Shown piece by piece: positions 15,821-53,919 of a stretch of DNA of 64,000 bases. The stretch lies in NCBI GenBank assembly GCA_000091205.1, contig AP006491.2. One strand, written 5' to 3'. Origin of the DNA: Cyanidioschyzon merolae. Its lineage: Eukaryota. The notes below the pieces were generated by a model, which did not search any database, was not told the origin of the DNA, and worked only from the letters and a program-made list of their open reading frames with translations. Numbering within the stretch: the first letter of the stretch is position 1; each line of letters begins with the position of its first letter. The position numbers and the translations under genes are program-made.

Positions 15821-17044
15821 TTAGTATTTGTAGCCAGCCTCAAACGTACCAGTTACATCCAGTGTCGGCTCTGAACCCGGAACGTATTTGCCCAGACTCG
15901 CCTTGCTGTTGGCTCGCGCCCGTGCAAGAAGCGCCTCCTGAGCCGCCCGCACATTCTCATCCTTACCCATCCACGATTTGAGGCACGACTGCTGCAGCGC
16001 GCGCCCATATGAGAAGGACAGCGCCCACGGTCCCTTGCGTGGACGGCTGTTCAGGGCGTTCAGGTTGATCGTGGCCTCTTCCTCCGTCATGCCACCAGAC
16101 AAGAACATGATACCAGGCACCGCTGCAGGGATCGTCCGCTCCAGCGTGCGAACCGTCATCTCAGCAATCACATCCGGCTTGACCTGCTGCTTGCTATCGG
16201 CACCAGGGAGCGTCATGGATGGTTTGAGAAGCGAGCCCTCCAGGAAGACTCCCTGTTGTTGGCACAAGTTATAAAGAATGGAGTAGACCTCCTCCTGGAC
16301 CTCAGCACACCTCTCGATGGTGTGGTCGCCATCCAGCAGAACCTCGGGCTCGATGATCGGCACCAGGCCCTGATCCTGCACAGTTCGGGCGTACCGCGCG
16401 AGACCGTAGCAGTTCTCGAAAATTGCCTGGCGAGTCGGACCGCCTGGTGCAATCTGGATAACCGCACGCCATTTGGCAAAGCGCGCACCCTGAGCGTAAT
16501 ACGCGGCTGCTCGCTCCGACAACCCGTCCAGGCCGGTGCACCAGGTCTCGTGCGCGAGCGCTGCGCCATGGAGCGGCGCCAAACCCTTGTCCACCTTGAT
16601 GCCTGGAATCACGCCAATGTTCCGCAGGCAGTCCACAAATGGACGACCATCCCGAGTGCTCTGATACAATGTCTCTTCGTACAGGATAGCACCGCTGATG
16701 TACTCACCGAGCCCCTGGCACGTGAAGAGGAGCTCGCGGTACCCACGCCGGTGCGTCTCCGTGTTCTCCACACCAATCGTTGCCAAGCGCTTTCCGATGG
16801 TTTTCGTGCTCTCGTCCACTGCAAGAATACCACGACCAGGCGATGCTATCTTGTTTGCAGTCTCCACCAGCTCGTCTGCGAATTTCTCCACCCCGCCCGG
16901 GCGCACGCCCCATGAGCGCATGCGCAGCGTCACAGAACGCGCCACTCGCGCACGAGGAGCGCCAAGAGACTTTTGACGCAAGTTAAGCTTCACATTCTGT
17001 TGGAAGAAAGAGGAATTAACTGGAATCTGAACGAATGCCTCCAT
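15821..17044 (-). CDS. Fructose-bisphosphate aldolase, class I, with a ~50-aa N-terminal presequence
   Basis: [84 protein letters not shown]...[16 protein letters not shown]...YKY is unmistakably class I aldolase. The stop is TAA. I chose the start at the ATG at 17044 ([12 protein letters not shown]...), because the upstream in-frame Arg-rich extension looks non-coding. Confidence 0.88.
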
Positions 17045-19071
17045 ATTGCCAGGTCTCAGCTCGCGCTCGCTGCGTGTCTTCGTGCCGCGCACACACCACA
17101 ACACCAACACGCAGTCAACGTCGCGTGTGGCAGGCATCGCTCGTCGACGCCTACCGTCACGACGCCGCCGGCGATGCGTCGCCGACGCCGCACGCATCGC
17201 GTTTTTGGTGCGTGCATGCGTGCGTGCTGGACGCCCGGCGCTGCGGCATCGAGCATCGTCGACGGTGCAGCGATCGGGGCAGCGAGATGCGGTGCGCGCA
17301 GACCTGGACATCATCGCCTCGGATGCGTCGCGAACGTTCGATTTTTTTCATAGACAAGACGTTTACTTGTGCCAGCTTTCTCCGATTATGCGCATTTATG
17401 TTTTCTTACCTCTTTTGTGTGTTATTTTTTGTGCGCGGTGAGGTATCCATCAAACGTCCTACCTCCAAGTTACATTACCTATACTGATTCTCGGATATTC
17501 TGGTCGTTTCATACGTTCTATCGGGTGCGCTTAGTACCTAACCTAATCATACGCCTTTGGAACTTAACCGCTGGAGCAGATAGTTCATAGAGTTAGGAGG
17601 GCTTTTCCATACCACAGAGGGCGTCGGTTCGAGGCGTGGTTCACCCGACGTAGAACTGGGATTCGTCGTCAGTGTGTGCTCGGACAGTCTGCGGATGCAG
17701 GCTTGCCTTCGCTGCACGACACGCTGGAGAAACTTCACTGTTAGGATATATCGTGGGGGCCGCCTCTCTCCTTCGTGATCATGCATGGAATGCGTTGTTG
17801 TCGGTTGGCAATGCGGGTTTGTGCTCGACACTCATACAGAAGGTAGGCGCAGAAAGCGCACTAAACCCGTGTGCGCATCCGATTCGCTGGACCATCCGCC
17901 TAGAAGGTAGCATGTGAGTTTGTTCGCCACTAGTGAGCGCTGAGGCTCTGTTAGCGGACCATCAGTTGCCAGTGCTGCACTCAAAGTGAGTGTCCGGCCG
18001 TCGACTATCACGGTGATGCCCAGCTGCTGCTGTCCTTCAAGGAGATCGCTGCGCTCCTGCTTTCAGCGCGGCCACTGTAACAGTAAATATGTCAGCGTCT
18101 CGGGGATCTCGTCTCGACAGCAGGGACAGTGTGATTCCCAGTGCGATTCCAGTGCTCCTATCCGGCTTAGAGCCGGTGCTGCTAGTCAGAAACCACCAAC
18201 GTGGATTTTGGCGAGCCACTGGGTACCGCGAGCAAGTCCCGGGAATTCCAGCGCCTCCCACCAGTACTTGCATGTGTATGCTAGGTTGTAGTTCCGGTAT
18301 AGAGTCAAGCCGGCGTTACGGGCGCGACTGGTTCCGTGTCTACGTTCCCATATTGGTGTTCGGACCGTTCGCTTGAGGCGTCTGAAGTCTTCTACATTCC
18401 TGGGGAACGATTGGAGCGGACAGCCTGCTTCTGGGCGTCGCGCTGGTCCGAGTGGACTCCGAGTACGTCGCTTCGTGCTGCTGCAAGCATTAGGTCTGTC
18501 TGCGCAGCTTACTGGCTCCCAGCATGATTATGTAGTCCGAACCCGTATCCAATGAACCACAACTTGAGGCGACGCCCTCACTGGCATGGCAAAGCCGTTC
18601 TGTCTCCGTGCCGCATCTGCTCCAGGGGTGTAAGCGCGATTGCGAATGCTCAAGGAAGGTTACGTGCACAGTGGAATGCACGAAATAACCAGTACATCCG
18701 AAAGGAAGTACAAGTAATGGAACCTGAAGGTAGGGTCCAGCAGCATGATGGGCGCTTTCCCGAATGTCAATACCGATCTATCGCGCAATCTGGCCTCCAT
18801 GGTCCATAGAAGCGCTTTGGCATCGGCGGGAGAACCGGGCGTCGCCCCGCGCTGCGCTCCATGGAACAATGCTCAAATCACGAATAAATTGTACTTTATT
18901 AAATCTGTATGTACTATGATGTACAAAATAGCATTCCAGGAATCCCGAGATCACACACGCGCTCGAGACGTGAACTGTCTCGTCACTCTCGGCTACGGCT
19001 TCATCTTCCTCGTATTTCTTCGCCATTAGATACGAGTGCGGTAAGATTCTGGGCTGAAGTTTTCAATATTA

Positions 19072-49060: not shown

Positions 49061-52000
49061 TTACCGAGTCGACGCTGCAGACGTCGCATTCCGAAGCGAG
49101 TCCTGGGCCAGCAGAGAACGCTCGGTTAACAGACCAGCACGCACGACGCGTACTGGTTTCTTCGGTGTATTGCGGGGGCGGTTGCTTCCTACCTCTTCGA
49201 TGCGTCGAATCGTGTCCATACCGTCAAGAACCTGCCCCAAAGGCACGTATTTGCCGTCCAGATACCCGGCATCGGAACCGGTCGTGATGAAAAACCTGCC
49301 GTCGCCCTCGTTGCGGTCGTTGCGGACCAAACCGACCAGACCTGCACGATCGAAGCGCAAGCGCGGAGCTTCTAGTAACCATCGTTCGCTTCGGGGCACT
49401 GGGTCACCCGCTTGCAACGTCAGTCCCGGCACAATGCGGTAGAATGACGTGTTCGTGTACCTGTGGATACAGCAGTCGAGGAAATGTGCACTCGACACAG
49501 GCGCCACCTCGCCAAAGACTCCAATAACGATTCGACCAGCCGGTTGGCCATCGATCTCAATGTCGAGGTAGCAGCGGTCAGTGATCTGTGGGGCCAAGTC
49601 GTCCAGCGCCTTCAGCGCAGAGTCGCGCTTCGCGCCATTCGATTCGCTCGCAGCCAGAGCCGTGCTTTGCAGTGACATCGTTCGAGCTGAGGCAGCTGCT
49701 GTAGGCGGCGTACCGTTAGACAGCTGATGCTCCACAAATCTCTGCAGTGGAATGTCGGAGGCGTTGCAGGTTTGCCAAGATTCGGGTGCGCGTTCCAGAT
49801 GCGTACCTACGAACCCTGATGGCAATGCGTCTGTGTCCGCTGCAGAAGCAATGACAACAGCGGAAGCAGACTTTGGCAAAGAAGCTCTTGTTGCTGTTGG
49901 CGCTTCTGGACGGGCCTCAGCAACACGACCTGGACCTGGCATTGGAGCCATTGCAGCGTCGACAGAGGCGAACGGCAGCCATAAACTCAACGCGCTCCAG
50001 GCTACGGCCAGGATGATAGCACTTGCCTGAAATGGCACTTGCTTACGTCCAACCGAATCCGAGGAGCGTGCACCACCACCGGAAGGCGCACCAGTAGCGG
50101 TCTCGTTGCGCGTAGCACCAGCGGGGGTATCCCCATGCGACTGGCGTTGGATGGGTGCACAGGCGCGTTCCAGCCACCGAAGAACAGCGGTCTCGTTACG
50201 TTCCTTCAAGCACGGTGCAATGCGTTCATACACTTCACGATGATAATGATTCAGCCAGGCGATCTCTTCATCAGACATCTGATCCAAGTCTAGTAAATCG
50301 GTGGATATCGGGACCATGGTCAAACGCTCAAACCCCAGAAACCGCTGACCACCAAAACTGCGCGCCGTCTCTACTGGTCGAACCACGAGCAGATTCTCAA
50401 TCCGAATACCAAATTCGCCATCCTCGTAGTAGCCGGGTTCGTTACTTAGAATCATGCCTGGTCGTAAGCCAACCGATGCAGCGTTCATTCTCGGAGAGAT
50501 GCTCTGCGGGCCTTCGTGGACGTTCAGCGCTGCCCCGACACCATGCCCCGTGCCGTGGCGATAATCCAGACCCAGACCCCATAGCGAGCGTCGAGCAAAG
50601 CTGTCCAGCAGTGTACCAGGGGTATTCTCTGGGAACACCGCCGTATCAATCGCAATATGGCCCCGCAGCACGCTCGTGTAGCAGCTCCGCACGTACGCGT
50701 CAGGTTTCCAAGTCGTGCGTTGTCCGCCGAGGAACAAAGTGCGCGTTACGTCCGTGGTACCGTCGACGTACTGGCCGCCAGAATCCAACAGGAGCACGCT
50801 ATTCGGCTCCCAGGTCCGACATTCATTCGGATCCGCGCGGTAGTGGATAATGGCGCCATTCGGACCGAGTCCCGCGATCGTATCGAATGAAGTGAATAGG
50901 AATCCTGATTCTTCGGCGCGAAACGCGGTGAGCCTCTCCGCGATGATGTGCTCATTCAATGCGCTGTACTTGGAGCTATCTTCACTGATCCGCTCCACCT
51001 CTGATTCCAGCCAGTGAAAGAACCGGCAAAGAGCGACTCCGTCACGAAGATGTGCCGCACGCATCCCAGCTAATTCCACGTCATTCTTGATCGCTTTCAT
51101 CAACGAGAGCGGTGTGGTATGCAGATACACTGCCTGAAGGCGACGTCGGAGGATCGCTGGATCCTCTTGAGCGGCAACGAAGCTATCCGCATCCAAGCCA
51201 GCGGCATGAAGCAGCATAGCCAACGAGACACTCGAAGGATCCATCCACAGGCGCTGCTTGCCTGGGCCGTAGTGTTCCCGTAGATACGATGCACACGCTT
51301 CATAGGGGCGCGTCTGAACCCCGTTCGCACGCAAATGTTCCTGGACGGCGACAGCGTTCGCCCCATCAAGTTTGGATGTGTCTACGAACAGTAGTGCGTC
51401 GCCCTCGCGGGGTACTAGGCCGTATGCCAGCACAACCGGACAATGTGGGATATCCTCCCCGCGAATGTTGAAAAGCCACGCAACCTCATCGAGCATGGAC
51501 ACGAAGACGCCGTCGACTCCTTCAGACATTTTTTGCCGGATTGCGGCAATTTTCTCCGCTGTAGATTGCCCAGCGTACTCCAGTGGATGAACTCGTACTG
51601 GGTTCGTCGGTAGCGACGGGCGCTTTGCTCCCCAGATCCGATCGACTGGGTGAGCCACAGCCTCCGGCAACGGCACAAGATGGATATCGAGTTCGAGCAC
51701 CCGGGAAACCCAGGCGTAGTGATGCACAAGCGGGTCGATGCCGACGCGATAGATACGACCAGCGCGTCTATGTTCACGGGAGCGTTCGGCGAGAAAATCT
51801 TCCAAAGTTGGCGTACCTGGCGTGCCCGTCTTCATGAGTCGCCAGCCCTCGGGCAGCTGCCGCTCAGCCTGAAGGAAGTACCGGCCATCCGTCCAAAGAT
51901 ACGCCTCCGCGTCGCTGCTGGTCACCAGGGCGGTCCCGGCGGAACCAGTGAAGCTCGTGAGGAACTCGCGTCGCGCATAGTGTGGCGGAGGATACTCCGA

Positions 52001-52315
52001 CTGATGCGGGTCTGCAGTTGGGACAATGAAAGCGTCGAGTGACTGTGAACGAAGCCAGCCTCGAACTGCCTCAACTTTGTCCGCAAGCGCAAAGACGTGG
52101 ACGTGTTTTCGATGTTGCCTTCGCGGTGTCTCTTCTTGGGGTCGATCTCGTACGAGCCTTTCCTGTCGCCTCGAACTTCGAAACCTGGTCCAGAGAAGCC
52201 GTCTGTTGCTTGGCGCTCCAGGAGCAAACGGCCGCCGCGTTACCAGACTGAGGCAACGACCGAGTTGTGGCTGCGACAGCCGTCCCGACGCCACGCTACC
52301 TGTGTGTAACCACAT
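49061..52315 (-). CDS. Xaa-Pro aminopeptidase P (M24B metallopeptidase) continuing without a stop into a C-terminal cyclophilin-like PPIase domain
   Basis: N-terminal APP domains (FIVPTADPHQSEYPPPHYARREFLTSFTGSAGTALVT...WTDGRYFLQAE). M24 core (HGTGHGVGAALNVHEGP...SNEPGYYEDGEFGIRIENLLVV). APP C-terminus (LRWLERACAPIQRQSH). About 200 aa of linker with one hydrophobic segment. Then a cyclophilin-like block (YLDIEIDGQPAGRIVIGVFGEVAPVSSAHFL...FYRIVPGLTLQAGDP...GDGRFFITTGSDAGYLDGKYVPLGQVLDGMDTIRRIEEV). Confidence 0.7.
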   Translation of the reverse strand: MWLHTGSVASGRLSQPQLGRCLSLVTRRPFAPGAPSNRRLLWTRFRSSRRQERLVRDRPQEETPRRQHRKHVHVFALADKVEAVRGWLRSQSLDAFIVPTADPHQSEYPPPHYARREFLTSFTGSAGTALVTSSDAEAYLWTDGRYFLQAERQLPEGWRLMKTGTPGTPTLEDFLAERSREHRRAGRIYRVGIDPLVHHYAWVSRVLELDIHLVPLPEAVAHPVDRIWGAKRPSLPTNPVRVHPLEYAGQSTAEKIAAIRQKMSEGVDGVFVSMLDEVAWLFNIRGEDIPHCPVVLAYGLVPREGDALLFVDTSKLDGANAVAVQEHLRANGVQTRPYEACASYLREHYGPGKQRLWMDPSSVSLAMLLHAAGLDADSFVAAQEDPAILRRRLQAVYLHTTPLSLMKAIKNDVELAGMRAAHLRDGVALCRFFHWLESEVERISEDSSKYSALNEHIIAERLTAFRAEESGFLFTSFDTIAGLGPNGAIIHYRADPNECRTWEPNSVLLLDSGGQYVDGTTDVTRTLFLGGQRTTWKPDAYVRSCYTSVLRGHIAIDTAVFPENTPGTLLDSFARRSLWGLGLDYRHGTGHGVGAALNVHEGPQSISPRMNAASVGLRPGMILSNEPGYYEDGEFGIRIENLLVVRPVETARSFGGQRFLGFERLTMVPISTDLLDLDQMSDEEIAWLNHYHREVYERIAPCLKERNETAVLRWLERACAPIQRQSHGDTPAGATRNETATGAPSGGGARSSDSVGRKQVPFQASAIILAVAWSALSLWLPFASVDAAMAPMPGPGRVAEARPEAPTATRASLPKSASAVVIASAADTDALPSGFVGTHLERAPESWQTCNASDIPLQRFVEHQLSNGTPPTAAASARTMSLQSTALAASESNGAKRDSALKALDDLAPQITDRCYLDIEIDGQPAGRIVIGVFGEVAPVSSAHFLDCCIHRYTNTSFYRIVPGLTLQAGDPVPRSERWLLEAPRLRFDRAGLVGLVRNDRNEGDGRFFITTGSDAGYLDGKYVPLGQVLDGMDTIRRIEEVGSNRPRNTPKKPVRVVRAGLLTERSLLAQDSLRNATSAASTR

Positions 52316-52408: not shown

Positions 52409-52552
52409 GACGGTCAACGAAAGCCTTATCGCAAAGCACGTGCAAAGTGTTTATTCGACTCGCAGTTAAATCCGTATCACAAAGCACGTGCAAAGTGTTT
52501 ATTCGACGCTCAGTTAAAGCCTTCTCACCCAGCACTTGCAAAACACTTGCGC
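52409..52552. repeat. 48-bp tandem repeat x3 just upstream of the aminopeptidase gene
   Basis: Three consecutive units: cgacggtcaacgaaagccttatcgcaaagcacgtgcaaagtgtttatt; cgactcgcagttaaatccgtatcacaaagcacgtgcaaagtgtttatt; cgacgctcagttaaagccttctcacccagcacttgcaaaacacttgcgc. Confidence 0.75.
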
Positions 52553-53116
52553 AAACGCCACCGAACGACGCGTTGTAGAGTGCAGCGCTGAAGCAATTCG
52601 GTACTCAGCACGTGGCGGAACGTGTGTCGCGGGTGTACCGTTTGCGAGCCCCGATGTGTCCGAGGTGCCTCCCGCGTCTTTCTCGTATGGCGAGGCGCAC
52701 CAGAGCAAGTCGTTGATCAAGCTTGCGGTTTAGGATGCTGGGCGTGTCCCGGAAGTCGCAGAATCCATGGTTCGCATTCGCTGGCAACTGCAGCACCCTG
52801 GACGCCCCGCATGGATTAGCAGCATCGCCGCGACTGCCATTACAGGTAACCGCACGCGACTCGTCACCTGGGATAGCGCGTTACCTACTGATCCATTCCC
52901 CTGCTGAATTGTGCTTCAATGCCGCTGGGATTCGGTGAATATCCGGAGTGCCTGTCGCTTTACAACCTGAGTCACAGTCCAAGTACATCGACCTCCGTTG
53001 TGCCGGGTGCTAAGATGCCTCCAGAAAACCCACGATTGCTGTGCTGAACACCGAGGAAACATCCCATTCAGGATGCAGCACGGATGAAATGAGCCAAAAC
53101 GCAAGGAAGCAAGTGA

Positions 53117-53392
53117 GGGAAACCCGCTGCTACACCACAGCGCTTTGGGGTCATCGCATCGATGAGAACGCACCCTTACCTCGACGGGAAACCCGCTGCT
53201 ACACCAGAGCGCTTTGGGGTCATCGTATCGATGAGAACGCACCCTCACCTCGACGGGAAACCCGCTGCTACACCACAGCGCTACGGGGTCATCGTATCGA
53301 TGACAACGCACCCTCACCTCGACGGGAAACCCGCTGCTACACCACAGCGCTTTGGGGTCATCGCATCGATGAGAACGCACCCTCACCTCGAC
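53117..53392. repeat. 69-bp tandem repeat x4
   Basis: The unit gggaaacccgctgctacaccacagcgctttggggtcatcgcatcgatgagaacgcacccttacctcgac starts at 53117, 53186, 53255 and 53324. It is open in frame on both strands, encoding RETRCYTTALWGHRIDENAPSPR x4 on the plus strand. Confidence 0.85.
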
Positions 53393-53919
53393 GCATGCCA
53401 TTTTTGGCGCCGCGACTGCCGCCGCCGCTGACTGCCAGCGTAACGTGGCAGACGTTGGGCAGCGTTCGCAGCCACTAACACACATCCTACAAAAACGAAT
53501 AAGCAGGCGCTCAGCGTTCCGTACCACGAACTACGGCACAACGGATGTGCGATTCAGGGATACAAGCAGGTGTGATAGTTACCTCCTTTTTCGTCATAAC
53601 GTACACTACAGTATAGATCGACGCACTCCTCGACTTTTGGCTCGTGGCGCACGCTGCAGTCCCAGGTGGTGCTGGCTGCAACCCGAAAGCGCTAGGGAAC
53701 ACCAGCTTGAACCCGTTGGTGGTGGCGGTGGTAGTAGTAGTAGTCATAGTGGAAGAGCTTGCGCTGTGGTCGACCACGAGCACCGAACACGTTGCGTCGC
53801 ACCGTTGGGCAACTCGGTGCAAGCCAAGTTCACGCTGGAGTCGTTGACTTGCTTGCTACACTGTAATCGCGCTCACCGATCGCACGCAAGGAGCAGAGGC
53901 GCAGCAATCGAACGCGAGT

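What the first reader, a model, noticed from the sequence alone, without database searches (positions are those of the whole stretch)
49061..52315. Aminopeptidase P (Xaa-Pro, M24B) apparently fused to a cyclophilin-like PPIase domain through a ~200-aa linker containing one hydrophobic helix
The 1084-codon minus-strand ORF contains a complete aminopeptidase P, including its normal C-terminal end (LRWLERACAPIQRQSH). There is no stop there. About 200 low-complexity codons follow, including a hydrophobic segment (AIILAVAWSALSLWLPFA), and then a divergent cyclophilin-type domain. Both domains act on Xaa-Pro bonds, so a fusion is biochemically sensible. A stop-free run of about 330 codons after the APP end is unlikely by chance at this GC content. 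It is not impossible on a GC-skewed strand. Alternatively the cyclophilin could be a separate gene, but no start codon precedes the hydrophobic segment.
Basis: partly seen in the sequence, partly recalled or inferred. Interest (0 to 1): 0.55.

Follow-up and report, generated by a model that had tools for sequence, protein, structure and literature searches.

The report
Red-algal aminopeptidase P–cyclophilin fusion protein
This is a real single gene, conserved across red algae, that joins a chloroplast-type Xaa-Pro aminopeptidase to a divergent cyclophilin through what looks like an internal thylakoid export signal, so one precursor probably supplies two chloroplast compartments.

Summary
The 1084-codon minus-strand ORF (49061-52315) is real. 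It holds a complete three-domain M24B aminopeptidase P (residues 81-722, all five metal ligands present), a 185-residue low-complexity linker, and a cyclophilin-fold domain (908-1062).

It is not an assembly error or two adjacent genes. An independent assembly matches it with 14 SNPs, no indels and no stop. The same architecture occurs in a Cyanidioschyzon-like alga, Cyanidiococcus, Cyanidium, Galdieria, Compsopogon and Rhodosorus. In Rhodosorus, transcripts span both domains.

The only conserved linker feature is a signal-peptide-like module directly after the aminopeptidase:
- a basic motif, which is a twin-arginine [S/T]RR in Galdieria, Compsopogon and Rhodosorus and RK here
- a 14-22 residue hydrophobic core
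- a proline, then an AxA-type site (VDA|A, residues 785-788)

The closest free-standing cyclophilins come from algae with red-derived plastids. Many of them carry N-terminal twin-arginine lumen signals. The closest unfused aminopeptidases are plant plastid AMPP2.

Best reading: a transit peptide, a stromal aminopeptidase, an internal thylakoid signal and a lumenal cyclophilin. The fusion and the motifs are shown. The location, any cleavage and the cyclophilin's activity are inferred. Only 4 of 12 canonical cyclophilin catalytic residues are retained.

The gene models already exist in databases. I found no description in the literature.

The parts
49061..52315 (-). Whole ORF, 1084 codons plus stop: presequence, aminopeptidase P, internal signal, spacer, cyclophilin
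   Evidence: ORF listed. Domains. Independent contig L001 covers window 52527-49002 with 14 SNPs and 0 indels.
52088..52315 (-). N-terminal presequence, about residues 1-76: basic, few acidic residues, first D/E at residue 52. Putative plastid transit peptide.
   Evidence: 17 K/R against 4 D/E. All fusion homologues and Arabidopsis AMPP2 carry comparable 58-88 aa extensions. The AMPP2 extension is treated as a cTP in PMC13557074. The targeting function itself is inferred.
50150..52075 (-). Three-domain M24B Xaa-Pro aminopeptidase (aminopeptidase P), residues 81-722
   Evidence: Pfam E-values 1.5e-13 to 3e-46. Human XPNPEP1 3ctz matches at E=1.9e-141. Metal ligands D511, D522, H591, E626 and E640 are invariant across the fusion proteins.
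50048..50149 (-). Gly/Ser/Thr/Ala-rich spacer between the aminopeptidase and the signal-like module, residues 723-756
   Evidence: Not alignable between genera. No Pfam match.
49955..50047 (-). Internal signal-peptide-like module, residues 757-787: R757-K758, hydrophobic core AIILAVAWSALSLWLPFA (766-783, with P781), then V785-D786-A787 | A788
   Evidence: Top hydropathy window in the protein. AlphaFold2 predicts a helix at 764-777. All six other lineages have the equivalent module in the same place. Three of them have [S/T]RR.
49595..49954 (-). Low-complexity spacer predicted to be disordered, residues 788-907
   Evidence: pLDDT below 50 over most of it. Length varies from about 35 to about 120 residues between genera. 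4 of its 5 SNPs against L001 are non-synonymous. It stays in frame.
49130..49594 (-). Cyclophilin-fold domain with a divergent active site, residues 908-1062
   Evidence: PF00160 E=2.2e-23. AlphaFold2 pLDDT above 93. Foldseek TM-score 0.86 and rmsd 1.8 A to L. donovani cyclophilin. Catalytic residues compared.
49061..49129 (-). C-terminal tail (residues 1063-1084) and stop codon
   Evidence: AlphaFold2 predicts a helix at 1065-1082. Present only in the Cyanidioschyzon-like lineage.
52420..52542 (.). 48-bp x 2.6 tandem repeat, 105-227 nt upstream of the ATG, each unit containing CACGTG. Possible promoter element.
   Evidence: Tandem Repeats Finder score 183. No function was tested.

Best explanation
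This is a nuclear gene of a Cyanidiophyceae-type red alga. It encodes one precursor with four functional modules: (1) a basic N-terminal presequence that imports the protein into the plastid, (2) a catalytically intact Xaa-Pro aminopeptidase most similar to plant plastid AMPP2 that stays in the stroma, (3) an internal thylakoid export signal derived from the twin-arginine (Tat) signal of a lumenal cyclophilin, and (4) a cyclophilin-fold domain that the signal carries across the thylakoid membrane into the lumen. The signal would insert as a hairpin, with the bulky aminopeptidase left on the stromal side. The conserved proline and AxA site (VDA|A788) suggest that thylakoidal processing peptidase then releases a lumenal cyclophilin of about 32 kDa. 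The aminopeptidase would keep a C-terminal membrane tail. In evolutionary terms, the whole 'transit peptide plus aminopeptidase' has taken the place of the transit peptide of a lumenal cyclophilin. Shown here: the single ORF, its conservation, the motif anatomy and both folds. Inferred: plastid import, translocation of the cyclophilin, the pathway used (RR is replaced by RK in this species), cleavage, and any PPIase activity.
For: - Real fusion. The ORF is intact. An independent Logan assembly has 14 SNPs, no indel and no stop. The closest full-length homologue has an identical 1067-aa ORF in several independent assemblies (four loci shown). A stop-free linker arises by chance in 28 of 20000 shuffles.
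- Conservation. The same architecture occurs in Cyanidiococcus, Cyanidium, Galdieria, Compsopogon and Rhodosorus. Rhodosorus MMETSP transcripts P0291 and P0286 join both domains in one mRNA.
- Signal anatomy. The linkers are otherwise unalignable, but every lineage has a basic motif, a 14-22 residue uncharged hydrophobic core, a proline and an AxA-type site directly after the aminopeptidase. Galdieria has TSRRSFLGFFCGLLVSSLLPKKKQLQA|V, Compsopogon MTRRAFGITALSLMLSSGLSALPTSNLRALA|S, Rhodosorus TRRELFFIALAGIWLAILGFGAPKARA|D, and the window GRKQVPFQASAIILAVAWSALSLWLPFASVDA|A. The 14-17 residue cores in Galdieria and Compsopogon are too short for a stable membrane span.
- Origin of the cyclophilin. 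Named hits in a profile search with free-standing members in the query profile are mostly diatoms and other stramenopiles. Of 85 single-domain relatives found by the exhaustive search, 66 have an upstream extension of at least 45 aa. 32 have RR followed by an uncharged hydrophobic stretch, often ending in AxA|AYIDP. P0121-P0124 show an ER signal followed by SRRSALGLL...ASA|A.
- Plastid affinity of the aminopeptidase. The best named unfused hits include plant 'aminopeptidase P2', with Arabidopsis At3g05350 at 46% identity. That enzyme is the plastid enzyme trimming RbcL (PMC13557074). All fusion proteins have 58-88 aa basic N-terminal extensions.
- Precedents. Plastids, including those of the red lineage, have thylakoid Tat and Sec systems (PMC8662606). 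Internal cleavable thylakoid signals exist in the PsbY polyprotein (Thompson et al. 1999, cited in PMC4823308).
Against: - There are no localisation, processing or activity data for any member. Every targeting step is inferred from motifs.
- In this species and its closest relatives the twin arginine is degenerate: RK here, and a single R in the Cyanidioschyzon-like, Cyanidiococcus and Cyanidium proteins. The pathway could therefore be Sec or spontaneous insertion, or the segment could be a permanent anchor.
- Pfam and NCBIfam Tat-signal models give no hit on any of the linkers.
- Charge distribution around the hydrophobic core is not clearly asymmetric.
- An AxA-like site within about 12 residues of a hydrophobic core in an Ala-rich linker is not rare by chance. 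My rough estimate is about 0.4-0.5 per sequence.
- The N-terminal presequence cannot be told apart from a mitochondrial one by composition alone.
- Rhodosorus isoforms that end just after the hydrophobic segment (P0065, P0290) suggest the segment can also act as a C-terminal anchor for the aminopeptidase.
- I built no phylogeny to confirm orthology with AMPP2.
Confidence: 0.6

Rival explanations
1. The protein is a permanently bitopic thylakoid (or envelope) membrane protein. The hydrophobic segment is an uncleaved signal-anchor, with the aminopeptidase on the stromal face and the cyclophilin tethered on the lumenal face. No processing occurs.
For: The hydrophobic core is 18-22 residues in the window and the Cyanidioschyzon-like, Cyanidiococcus, Cyanidium and Rhodosorus proteins, long enough to span a membrane. 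AlphaFold2 predicts a helix. Rhodosorus isoforms P0065 and P0290 end 17-27 residues after the segment, so they look like tail-anchored aminopeptidases. From my own knowledge, the chloroplast Rieske protein is a Tat substrate with an uncleaved signal-anchor.
Against: The Galdieria and Compsopogon cores are only 14-17 residues and rich in Ser/Gly, typical of cleaved Tat signals. A proline followed by an AxA-type site is present in all seven lineages.
Confidence: 0.25
2. It is a soluble two-domain enzyme in one compartment (stroma, mitochondrial matrix or cytosol). The cyclophilin isomerises Xaa-Pro bonds to feed the aminopeptidase, and the hydrophobic stretch is only a linker or oligomerisation helix.
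For: Both domain families recognise Xaa-Pro, and aminopeptidase P needs a trans bond (general knowledge). The fusion is ancient and maintained.
Against: The hydrophobic segment is the only conserved linker feature and carries [S/T]RR, proline and AxA signal hallmarks. The nearest free-standing cyclophilins have Tat-type lumen signals. 8 of the 12 canonical cyclophilin active-site residues are replaced, including H126Y, W121Y, N102R and Q111R. The disordered linker varies from about 78 to more than 300 residues, which does not suggest tight coupling.
Confidence: 0.1
3. It is an artefact: two neighbouring genes joined by a missing stop or a frameshift, or by chance read-through of an intergenic region.
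For: Cyanidiophyceae genomes are compact. The linker is low-complexity, with atypical codon-position GC (GC3 0.51 against 0.60-0.63 in the domains). Its substitutions against L001 are mostly non-synonymous.
Against: An independent assembly has an identical frame. Seven lineages keep the frame open despite unalignable linkers of very different length. Rhodosorus transcripts span the junction. 28 of 20000 shuffles are stop-free. No Met precedes the signal-like segment, and the internal Mets (789, 792, 879) are not conserved.
Confidence: 0.03

Closest known systems
Plant plastid aminopeptidase P2 (AMPP2, Arabidopsis At3g05350), of the eukaryotic three-domain M24B XPNPEP1-type aminopeptidase P family
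   Same: Same three-domain architecture plus the M24 C-terminal region. All five metal ligands are present. 46% identity to the Arabidopsis protein. Both have an N-terminal organellar presequence (PMC13557074).
   Different: The plant enzyme ends at the M24_C region. Here 362 further residues follow: a signal-like module, a spacer and a cyclophilin. From my own knowledge, red-type RbcL does not start Met-Ser-Pro, so the one proven plant substrate is probably not the substrate here.
Free-standing thylakoid-lumen-type cyclophilins of algae with red-derived plastids (for example P0121-P0124, Ectocarpus P0141, Skeletonema P0330, Seminavis P0312)
   Same: They are the closest relatives of the cyclophilin domain, at 35-41% identity. 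They share family signatures: ITxR[CV]Y[LF]D at the start of the domain, SMVR, DSRFFI, and Tyr at the hCypA H126 position. Many carry an RR, hydrophobic core and AxA signal directly upstream of the domain.
   Different: Their signal is near the N-terminus, after an ER signal and transit-peptide-like part. Here the signal is internal, behind a 70-kDa enzyme. The window domain also lacks the loop equivalent to hCypA residues 70-78.
PsbY polyprotein precursor of plant thylakoids (Mant & Robinson 1998; Thompson et al. 1999)
   Same: One nuclear-encoded precursor with one transit peptide gives more than one thylakoid product. It uses an internal cleavable signal peptide (references found in PMC4823308 and PMC8790069).
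   Different: PsbY yields two small homologous membrane proteins by SRP/Sec-independent insertion. Here the two parts are unrelated soluble enzymes destined, on this reading, for different compartments, and the signal is Tat-like.
Chloroplast Rieske Fe-S protein (Tat substrate with an uncleaved signal-anchor)
   Same: The topology matches what is proposed here: the N-terminus stays in the stroma, there is one hydrophobic span, and a folded C-terminal domain reaches the lumen. Its twin-arginine motif is also degenerate (KR). This comparison rests on my own knowledge and was not tested here.
   Different: The stromal part of Rieske is a few residues, not a 640-residue enzyme, and it has no AxA processing.

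Membership tests
M24B Xaa-Pro aminopeptidase (aminopeptidase P, XPNPEP1/AMPP type) | Three-domain architecture: Creatinase_N, Creatinase_N_2, Peptidase_M24 pita-bread domain, plus the M24 C-terminal region | tested here: met
   All four Pfam models hit above their gathering scores, in order. 3ctz aligns over residues 90-725 at E=1.9e-141.
M24B Xaa-Pro aminopeptidase (aminopeptidase P, XPNPEP1/AMPP type) | Five dinuclear-metal ligands (Asp, Asp, His, Glu, Glu) | tested here: met
   D511, D522, H591, E626 and E640 are invariant in the seven-sequence alignment. The assignment of these positions as ligands rests on my knowledge of M24 enzymes.
M24B Xaa-Pro aminopeptidase (aminopeptidase P, XPNPEP1/AMPP type) | Hydrolysis of the N-terminal residue before proline | not testable with these tools
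   This needs an enzyme assay.
Plastid AMPP2 orthologue group | Groups with plastid AMPP2 rather than cytosolic AMPP1, and has a plastid transit peptide | tested here: inconclusive
   The best named unfused hits include plant 'aminopeptidase P2', and a basic 76-aa presequence is present. I built no phylogeny and ran no targeting predictor.
Cyclophilin-type PPIase (PF00160) | Cyclophilin beta-barrel fold | tested here: met
   PF00160 E=2.2e-23. AlphaFold2 pLDDT above 93 over 910-1065. Foldseek TM-score 0.86 to 4s1e.
Cyclophilin-type PPIase (PF00160) | Canonical catalytic and cyclosporin-binding residues (hCypA R55, F60, M61, Q63, A101, N102, A103, Q111, F113, W121, L122, H126) | tested here: not met
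   Only R55, Q63, F113 and L122 are retained. The changes are F60L, M61T, A101V, N102R, A103N, Q111R, W121Y and H126Y, and the 70-78 loop is deleted. The domain is best called cyclophilin-like. Its activity is unknown.
Twin-arginine (Tat) signal peptide | [S/T]-R-R-x-F-L-type motif at the boundary between the basic region and the hydrophobic core | tested here: not met
   The window has G-R-K-Q-V-P-F (R757, K758). The motif is met in the homologues: Galdieria SRRSFL, Compsopogon TRRAFG, Rhodosorus TRRELF. The Pfam TAT_signal and NCBIfam models give no hit on any linker.
Twin-arginine (Tat) signal peptide | Moderately hydrophobic core followed by a helix-breaking residue and an AxA signal-peptidase site | tested here: met
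   The core is residues 766-783 with P781, followed by V785-D786-A787|A788. Equivalent sites occur in all six other lineages.
Twin-arginine (Tat) signal peptide | N-terminal position in the substrate presented to the translocase | tested here: not met
   The module starts at residue 757, behind the aminopeptidase. It would be N-terminal only if an unknown stromal cleavage occurred.
Thylakoid polyprotein precursor (PsbY-like) | Internal signal peptide cleaved by thylakoidal processing peptidase to give separate mature products | not testable with these tools
   This needs immunoblots, N-terminomics or in vitro import.

The most novel reading that the evidence does not exclude
This would be a natural 'one precursor, two compartments' protein. 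A single transit peptide imports a folded 70-kDa stromal enzyme, and an internal Tat-derived signal behind it exports a cyclophilin into the thylakoid lumen and is then cleaved. The arrangement would be ancient, shared by several red-algal classes. It would be the first described stroma/lumen polyprotein, and a natural test of whether thylakoid translocases accept signals with a large N-terminal passenger.
Probability: 0.4. Interest if true: 0.7.

Novelty: new variant of a known kind. Interest (0 to 1): 0.55.

Why it matters
If the model holds, red algae deliver a lumenal protein without its own transit peptide, by attaching it behind a stromal enzyme. That is a targeting solution not described for primary plastids. 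It bears on how Tat and Sec signals are recognised when they are not N-terminal. It also bears on how gene fusion shaped organelle targeting in the reduced genomes of red algae, and on the origin of the free-standing lumenal cyclophilins of diatoms and other algae with red-derived plastids. It is directly testable in the genetically tractable Cyanidioschyzon merolae. On the practical side, at least one genome annotation (Rhodosorus KAJ8907206.1) appears to split the gene. The database names ('Xpnpep2p', 'X-Pro dipeptidase') hide the second domain.

Tried and rejected
- Assembly error or missing stop: rejected. Independent contig L001 differs by 14 SNPs and no indels, and several assemblies of the closest full-length homologue carry the same ORF.
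- Chance open frame: rejected (28 of 20000 shuffles, plus conservation).
- Separate cyclophilin gene from an internal start: rejected. No Met lies before the hydrophobic segment, and the later Mets are not conserved.
- Kinetoplastid origin was my first guess from the long intronless ORFs. I dropped it once the homologues proved to be Cyanidiophyceae.
- Pfam TAT_signal and NCBIfam scans of six linker segments gave no hits. The Tat argument therefore rests on motif inspection and on relatives.
- A single-sequence search with the window's cyclophilin domain found only 5 proteins. Profile searches were needed.
- No plant lumenal cyclophilin (CYP20-2, CYP26-2, CYP28, CYP37 or CYP38) appeared among the listed hits. 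I could not assign the domain to a named plant subfamily.
- Literature searches for a described aminopeptidase P-cyclophilin fusion found nothing. A search for SRR29605857 also found nothing, so I cannot say whether L001 comes from RNA or DNA.
- The charge bias around the hydrophobic core was uninformative.
Full report
**Observation**

The minus-strand ORF 49061-52315 (1084 codons, ATG start) is present as described. Pfam places these domains, all far above threshold:
- Creatinase_N at residues 81-206
- Creatinase_N_2 at 231-414
- Peptidase_M24 at 417-646
- Peptidase_M24_C at 659-722
- Pro_isomerase (cyclophilin) at 916-1061

Human XPNPEP1 (3ctz) aligns from residue 90 to 725, reaching its own C-terminus. 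Leishmania and other cyclophilins align to 908-1062. The linker is 185 residues (723-907). The stop-free run after the aminopeptidase end is 362 codons.

In the linker the ORF frame has no stops, while the other five frames have 2-7. Only 28 of 20000 shuffles of the linker are stop-free.

**Source organism**

The window is intron-poor eukaryotic nuclear DNA. It also encodes a class-I aldolase, catalase, a SulP transporter, an RCC1 protein and ABCE1. The best full-length relatives of the ORF are all Cyanidiophyceae. The window therefore comes from an unnamed member of that group, 62-64% identical in this protein to Cyanidiococcus yangmingshanensis and to a Cyanidioschyzon-like assembly.

**Is the fusion real?**

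Yes, on three lines of evidence.

- Independent assembly. A Logan contig from run SRR29605857 (L001, 3526 nt) covers window 52527-49002. It differs at 14 positions, with no indel and no stop.
- Conserved architecture. The same aminopeptidase-plus-cyclophilin layout is found in:
  - P0002 (1067 aa, the same ORF in several independent assemblies)
  - Cyanidiococcus P0003
  - Cyanidium caldarium P0004 and P0126
  - Galdieria sulphuraria P0011 and P0300
  - Compsopogon caeruleus P0013 and P0296
  - Rhodosorus marinus P0286 and P0291
- Transcript evidence. The Rhodosorus and Compsopogon sequences come from transcriptomes. In relatives, one mRNA carries both domains.

The linkers range from about 78 to more than 300 residues and cannot be aligned, yet the frame is always open. 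Agarophyton (Florideophyceae) has an aminopeptidase that ends normally. The fusion is therefore widespread in red algae but not universal.

**Anatomy of the linker**

The only recurrent linker feature sits directly after the aminopeptidase. It has a basic motif, an uncharged hydrophobic core of 14-22 residues, a proline and an AxA-type site:

| Lineage | Sequence |
|---|---|
| Galdieria | TSRRSFLGFFCGLLVSSLLPKKKQLQA\|V |
| Compsopogon | MTRRAFGITALSLMLSSGLSALPTSNLRALA\|S |
| Rhodosorus | LTRRELFFIALAGIWLAILGFGAPKARA\|D |
| Cyanidium | ERWLGAAIVALVLGGLTWASAALWTPPVRA\|A |
| Cyanidioschyzon-like | SRLGTFFLMATWSAMSVWSNLPLADA\|T |
| Cyanidiococcus | SRLGVFFLAAVWTAMSIWSNLPIATA\|S |
| Window | GRKQVPFQASAIILAVAWSALSLWLPFASVDA\|A (R757-K758, core 766-783, cut after A787) |

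Three deep lineages thus keep a textbook twin-arginine motif. They also have basic residues in the c-region, which from my own knowledge is typical of Tat signals. In the window the segment is the most hydrophobic stretch of the protein, and AlphaFold2 models residues 764-777 as a helix. Residues 778-893 are predicted disordered, and the cyclophilin domain is confident, with pLDDT above 93. HMM models for Tat signals did not fire on these short segments.

**Relatives of the two enzymes**

*Aminopeptidase.* The best named unfused hits include green-lineage 'aminopeptidase P2', among them Arabidopsis At3g05350. A 2026 paper shows this AMPP2 is the plastid enzyme that trims RbcL Ser2 to expose Pro3, and that it carries a cTP (PMC13557074). 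All red-algal fusion proteins have 58-88 residue basic N-terminal extensions with few acidic residues, like AMPP2. The five metal ligands are invariant.

*Cyclophilin.* An exhaustive profile search and a second profile search that also included free-standing family members give mostly free-standing proteins of 200-300 aa. The named ones are largely from diatoms, brown algae and raphidophytes. Of 85 single-domain relatives, 66 have an upstream extension of at least 45 aa, and 32 have RR followed by an uncharged hydrophobic stretch, frequently ending AxA|AYIDP. P0121-P0124 show an ER signal followed by SRRSALGLL...ASA|A. The domain therefore belongs to a cyclophilin group that is typically sent to the thylakoid lumen by Tat-type signals in plastids of red ancestry.

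*Cyclophilin active site.* The fold is a standard cyclophilin barrel (Foldseek TM-score 0.86). Only R55, Q63, F113 and L122 of the twelve canonical hCypA active-site residues remain. The substitutions are F60L, M61T, A101V, N102R, A103N, Q111R, W121Y and H126Y, and the 70-78 loop is missing. Some of these changes (the SMVR and DSRFFI signatures and the Tyr at position 126) are shared with the free-standing family. Whether the domain isomerises prolyl bonds is open.

**Most likely mechanism**

1. The precursor is made in the cytosol.
2. It is imported into the plastid through its N-terminal presequence.
3. The aminopeptidase folds in the stroma.
4. The internal signal engages a thylakoid translocase, most likely as a hairpin that leaves the N-terminal passenger on the stromal side.
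5. The C-terminal spacer and cyclophilin cross into the lumen.
6. The conserved proline and AxA site then allow the thylakoidal processing peptidase to free a cyclophilin of about 32 kDa. The aminopeptidase is left with a short C-terminal membrane tail.

Plastids of the red lineage possess thylakoid Tat and Sec systems (PMC8662606). Internal cleavable thylakoid signals have a precedent in the PsbY polyprotein. In this species the RR has become RK, so the route may have shifted from Tat to Sec, to spontaneous insertion, or to a permanent anchor.

My confidence in each step:

| Step | Confidence |
|---|---|
| Real conserved fusion | about 0.97 |
| Plastid location | about 0.8 |
| Cyclophilin in the lumen | about 0.65 |
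| Cleavage at the AxA site | about 0.45 |

**Rival explanations**

- A permanently bitopic protein is the main rival. It is supported by the 18-22 residue cores in several lineages and by Rhodosorus isoforms that end just after the segment.
- An artefactual join is essentially excluded.

**Novelty**

The gene models are already public, under names that mention only one domain: 'Xpnpep2p', 'X-Pro dipeptidase isoform 1' and 'PPIase cyclophilin-type domain-containing protein'. I found no paper describing the fusion or its internal signal. Both enzymes and the signal type are known kinds. The arrangement is a new variant: an unrelated stromal enzyme and a lumenal protein in one precursor, separated by an internal Tat-derived signal. 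It can be tested directly in Cyanidioschyzon merolae.

Noticed in passing
window 52420-52542: A 48-bp tandem repeat (2.6 copies, 85% matches) lies 105-227 nt upstream of the ORF's ATG. Each unit contains the palindrome CACGTG (G-box/E-box-like). The independent contig L001 ends inside this repeat. It may be a promoter element.
   Followed up: no
window 53117-53393: A 69-bp tandem repeat (4 copies, 94% matches) produces repeated-peptide ORFs on both strands (52916-53527 minus, 53041-53478 plus). It is probably non-coding satellite-like DNA between genes.
   Followed up: no
Rhodosorus marinus proteins P0284, P0286, P0291, P0065, P0290 (cluster): The genome annotation KAJ8907206.1 (194-aa PPIase starting MEPEFSLLFIPQARADESS) looks like the 3' part of the aminopeptidase-cyclophilin gene split off by annotation. 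MMETSP transcripts join it to the aminopeptidase. Other transcript isoforms stop just after the hydrophobic segment, so alternative splicing or intron retention may give an anchored aminopeptidase without the cyclophilin.
   Followed up: partly
window ORF residues C915 and C949 (about window 49571-49573 and 49469-49471): Two cysteines in the cyclophilin domain are invariant in all red-algal fusion proteins. C949 aligns with hCypA position 40. They may form a disulfide in an oxidising lumen.
   Followed up: no
window 15821-17314 (-): A class-I fructose-bisphosphate aldolase has an N-terminal extension of about 147 residues before the Pfam domain. It may be another organelle-targeted protein, or the listed start may be too far upstream.
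   Followed up: no
Galdieria sulphuraria P0299 against P0300: The annotated 'isoform 2' (796 aa) ends inside the cyclophilin domain with a different C-terminus (…SFSYFRSSYDL). It may be an alternative-splicing product lacking a functional cyclophilin.
   Followed up: no
window 49595-50149 (linker) compared with L001: Six of the 12 SNPs inside the ORF fall in the 185-codon linker, and 5 of those 6 are non-synonymous. The linker's GC3 is 0.51, against 0.60-0.63 in the two domains. The linker evolves under weak constraint apart from the signal-like module, although even there L780 is P in the other strain.
   Followed up: partly
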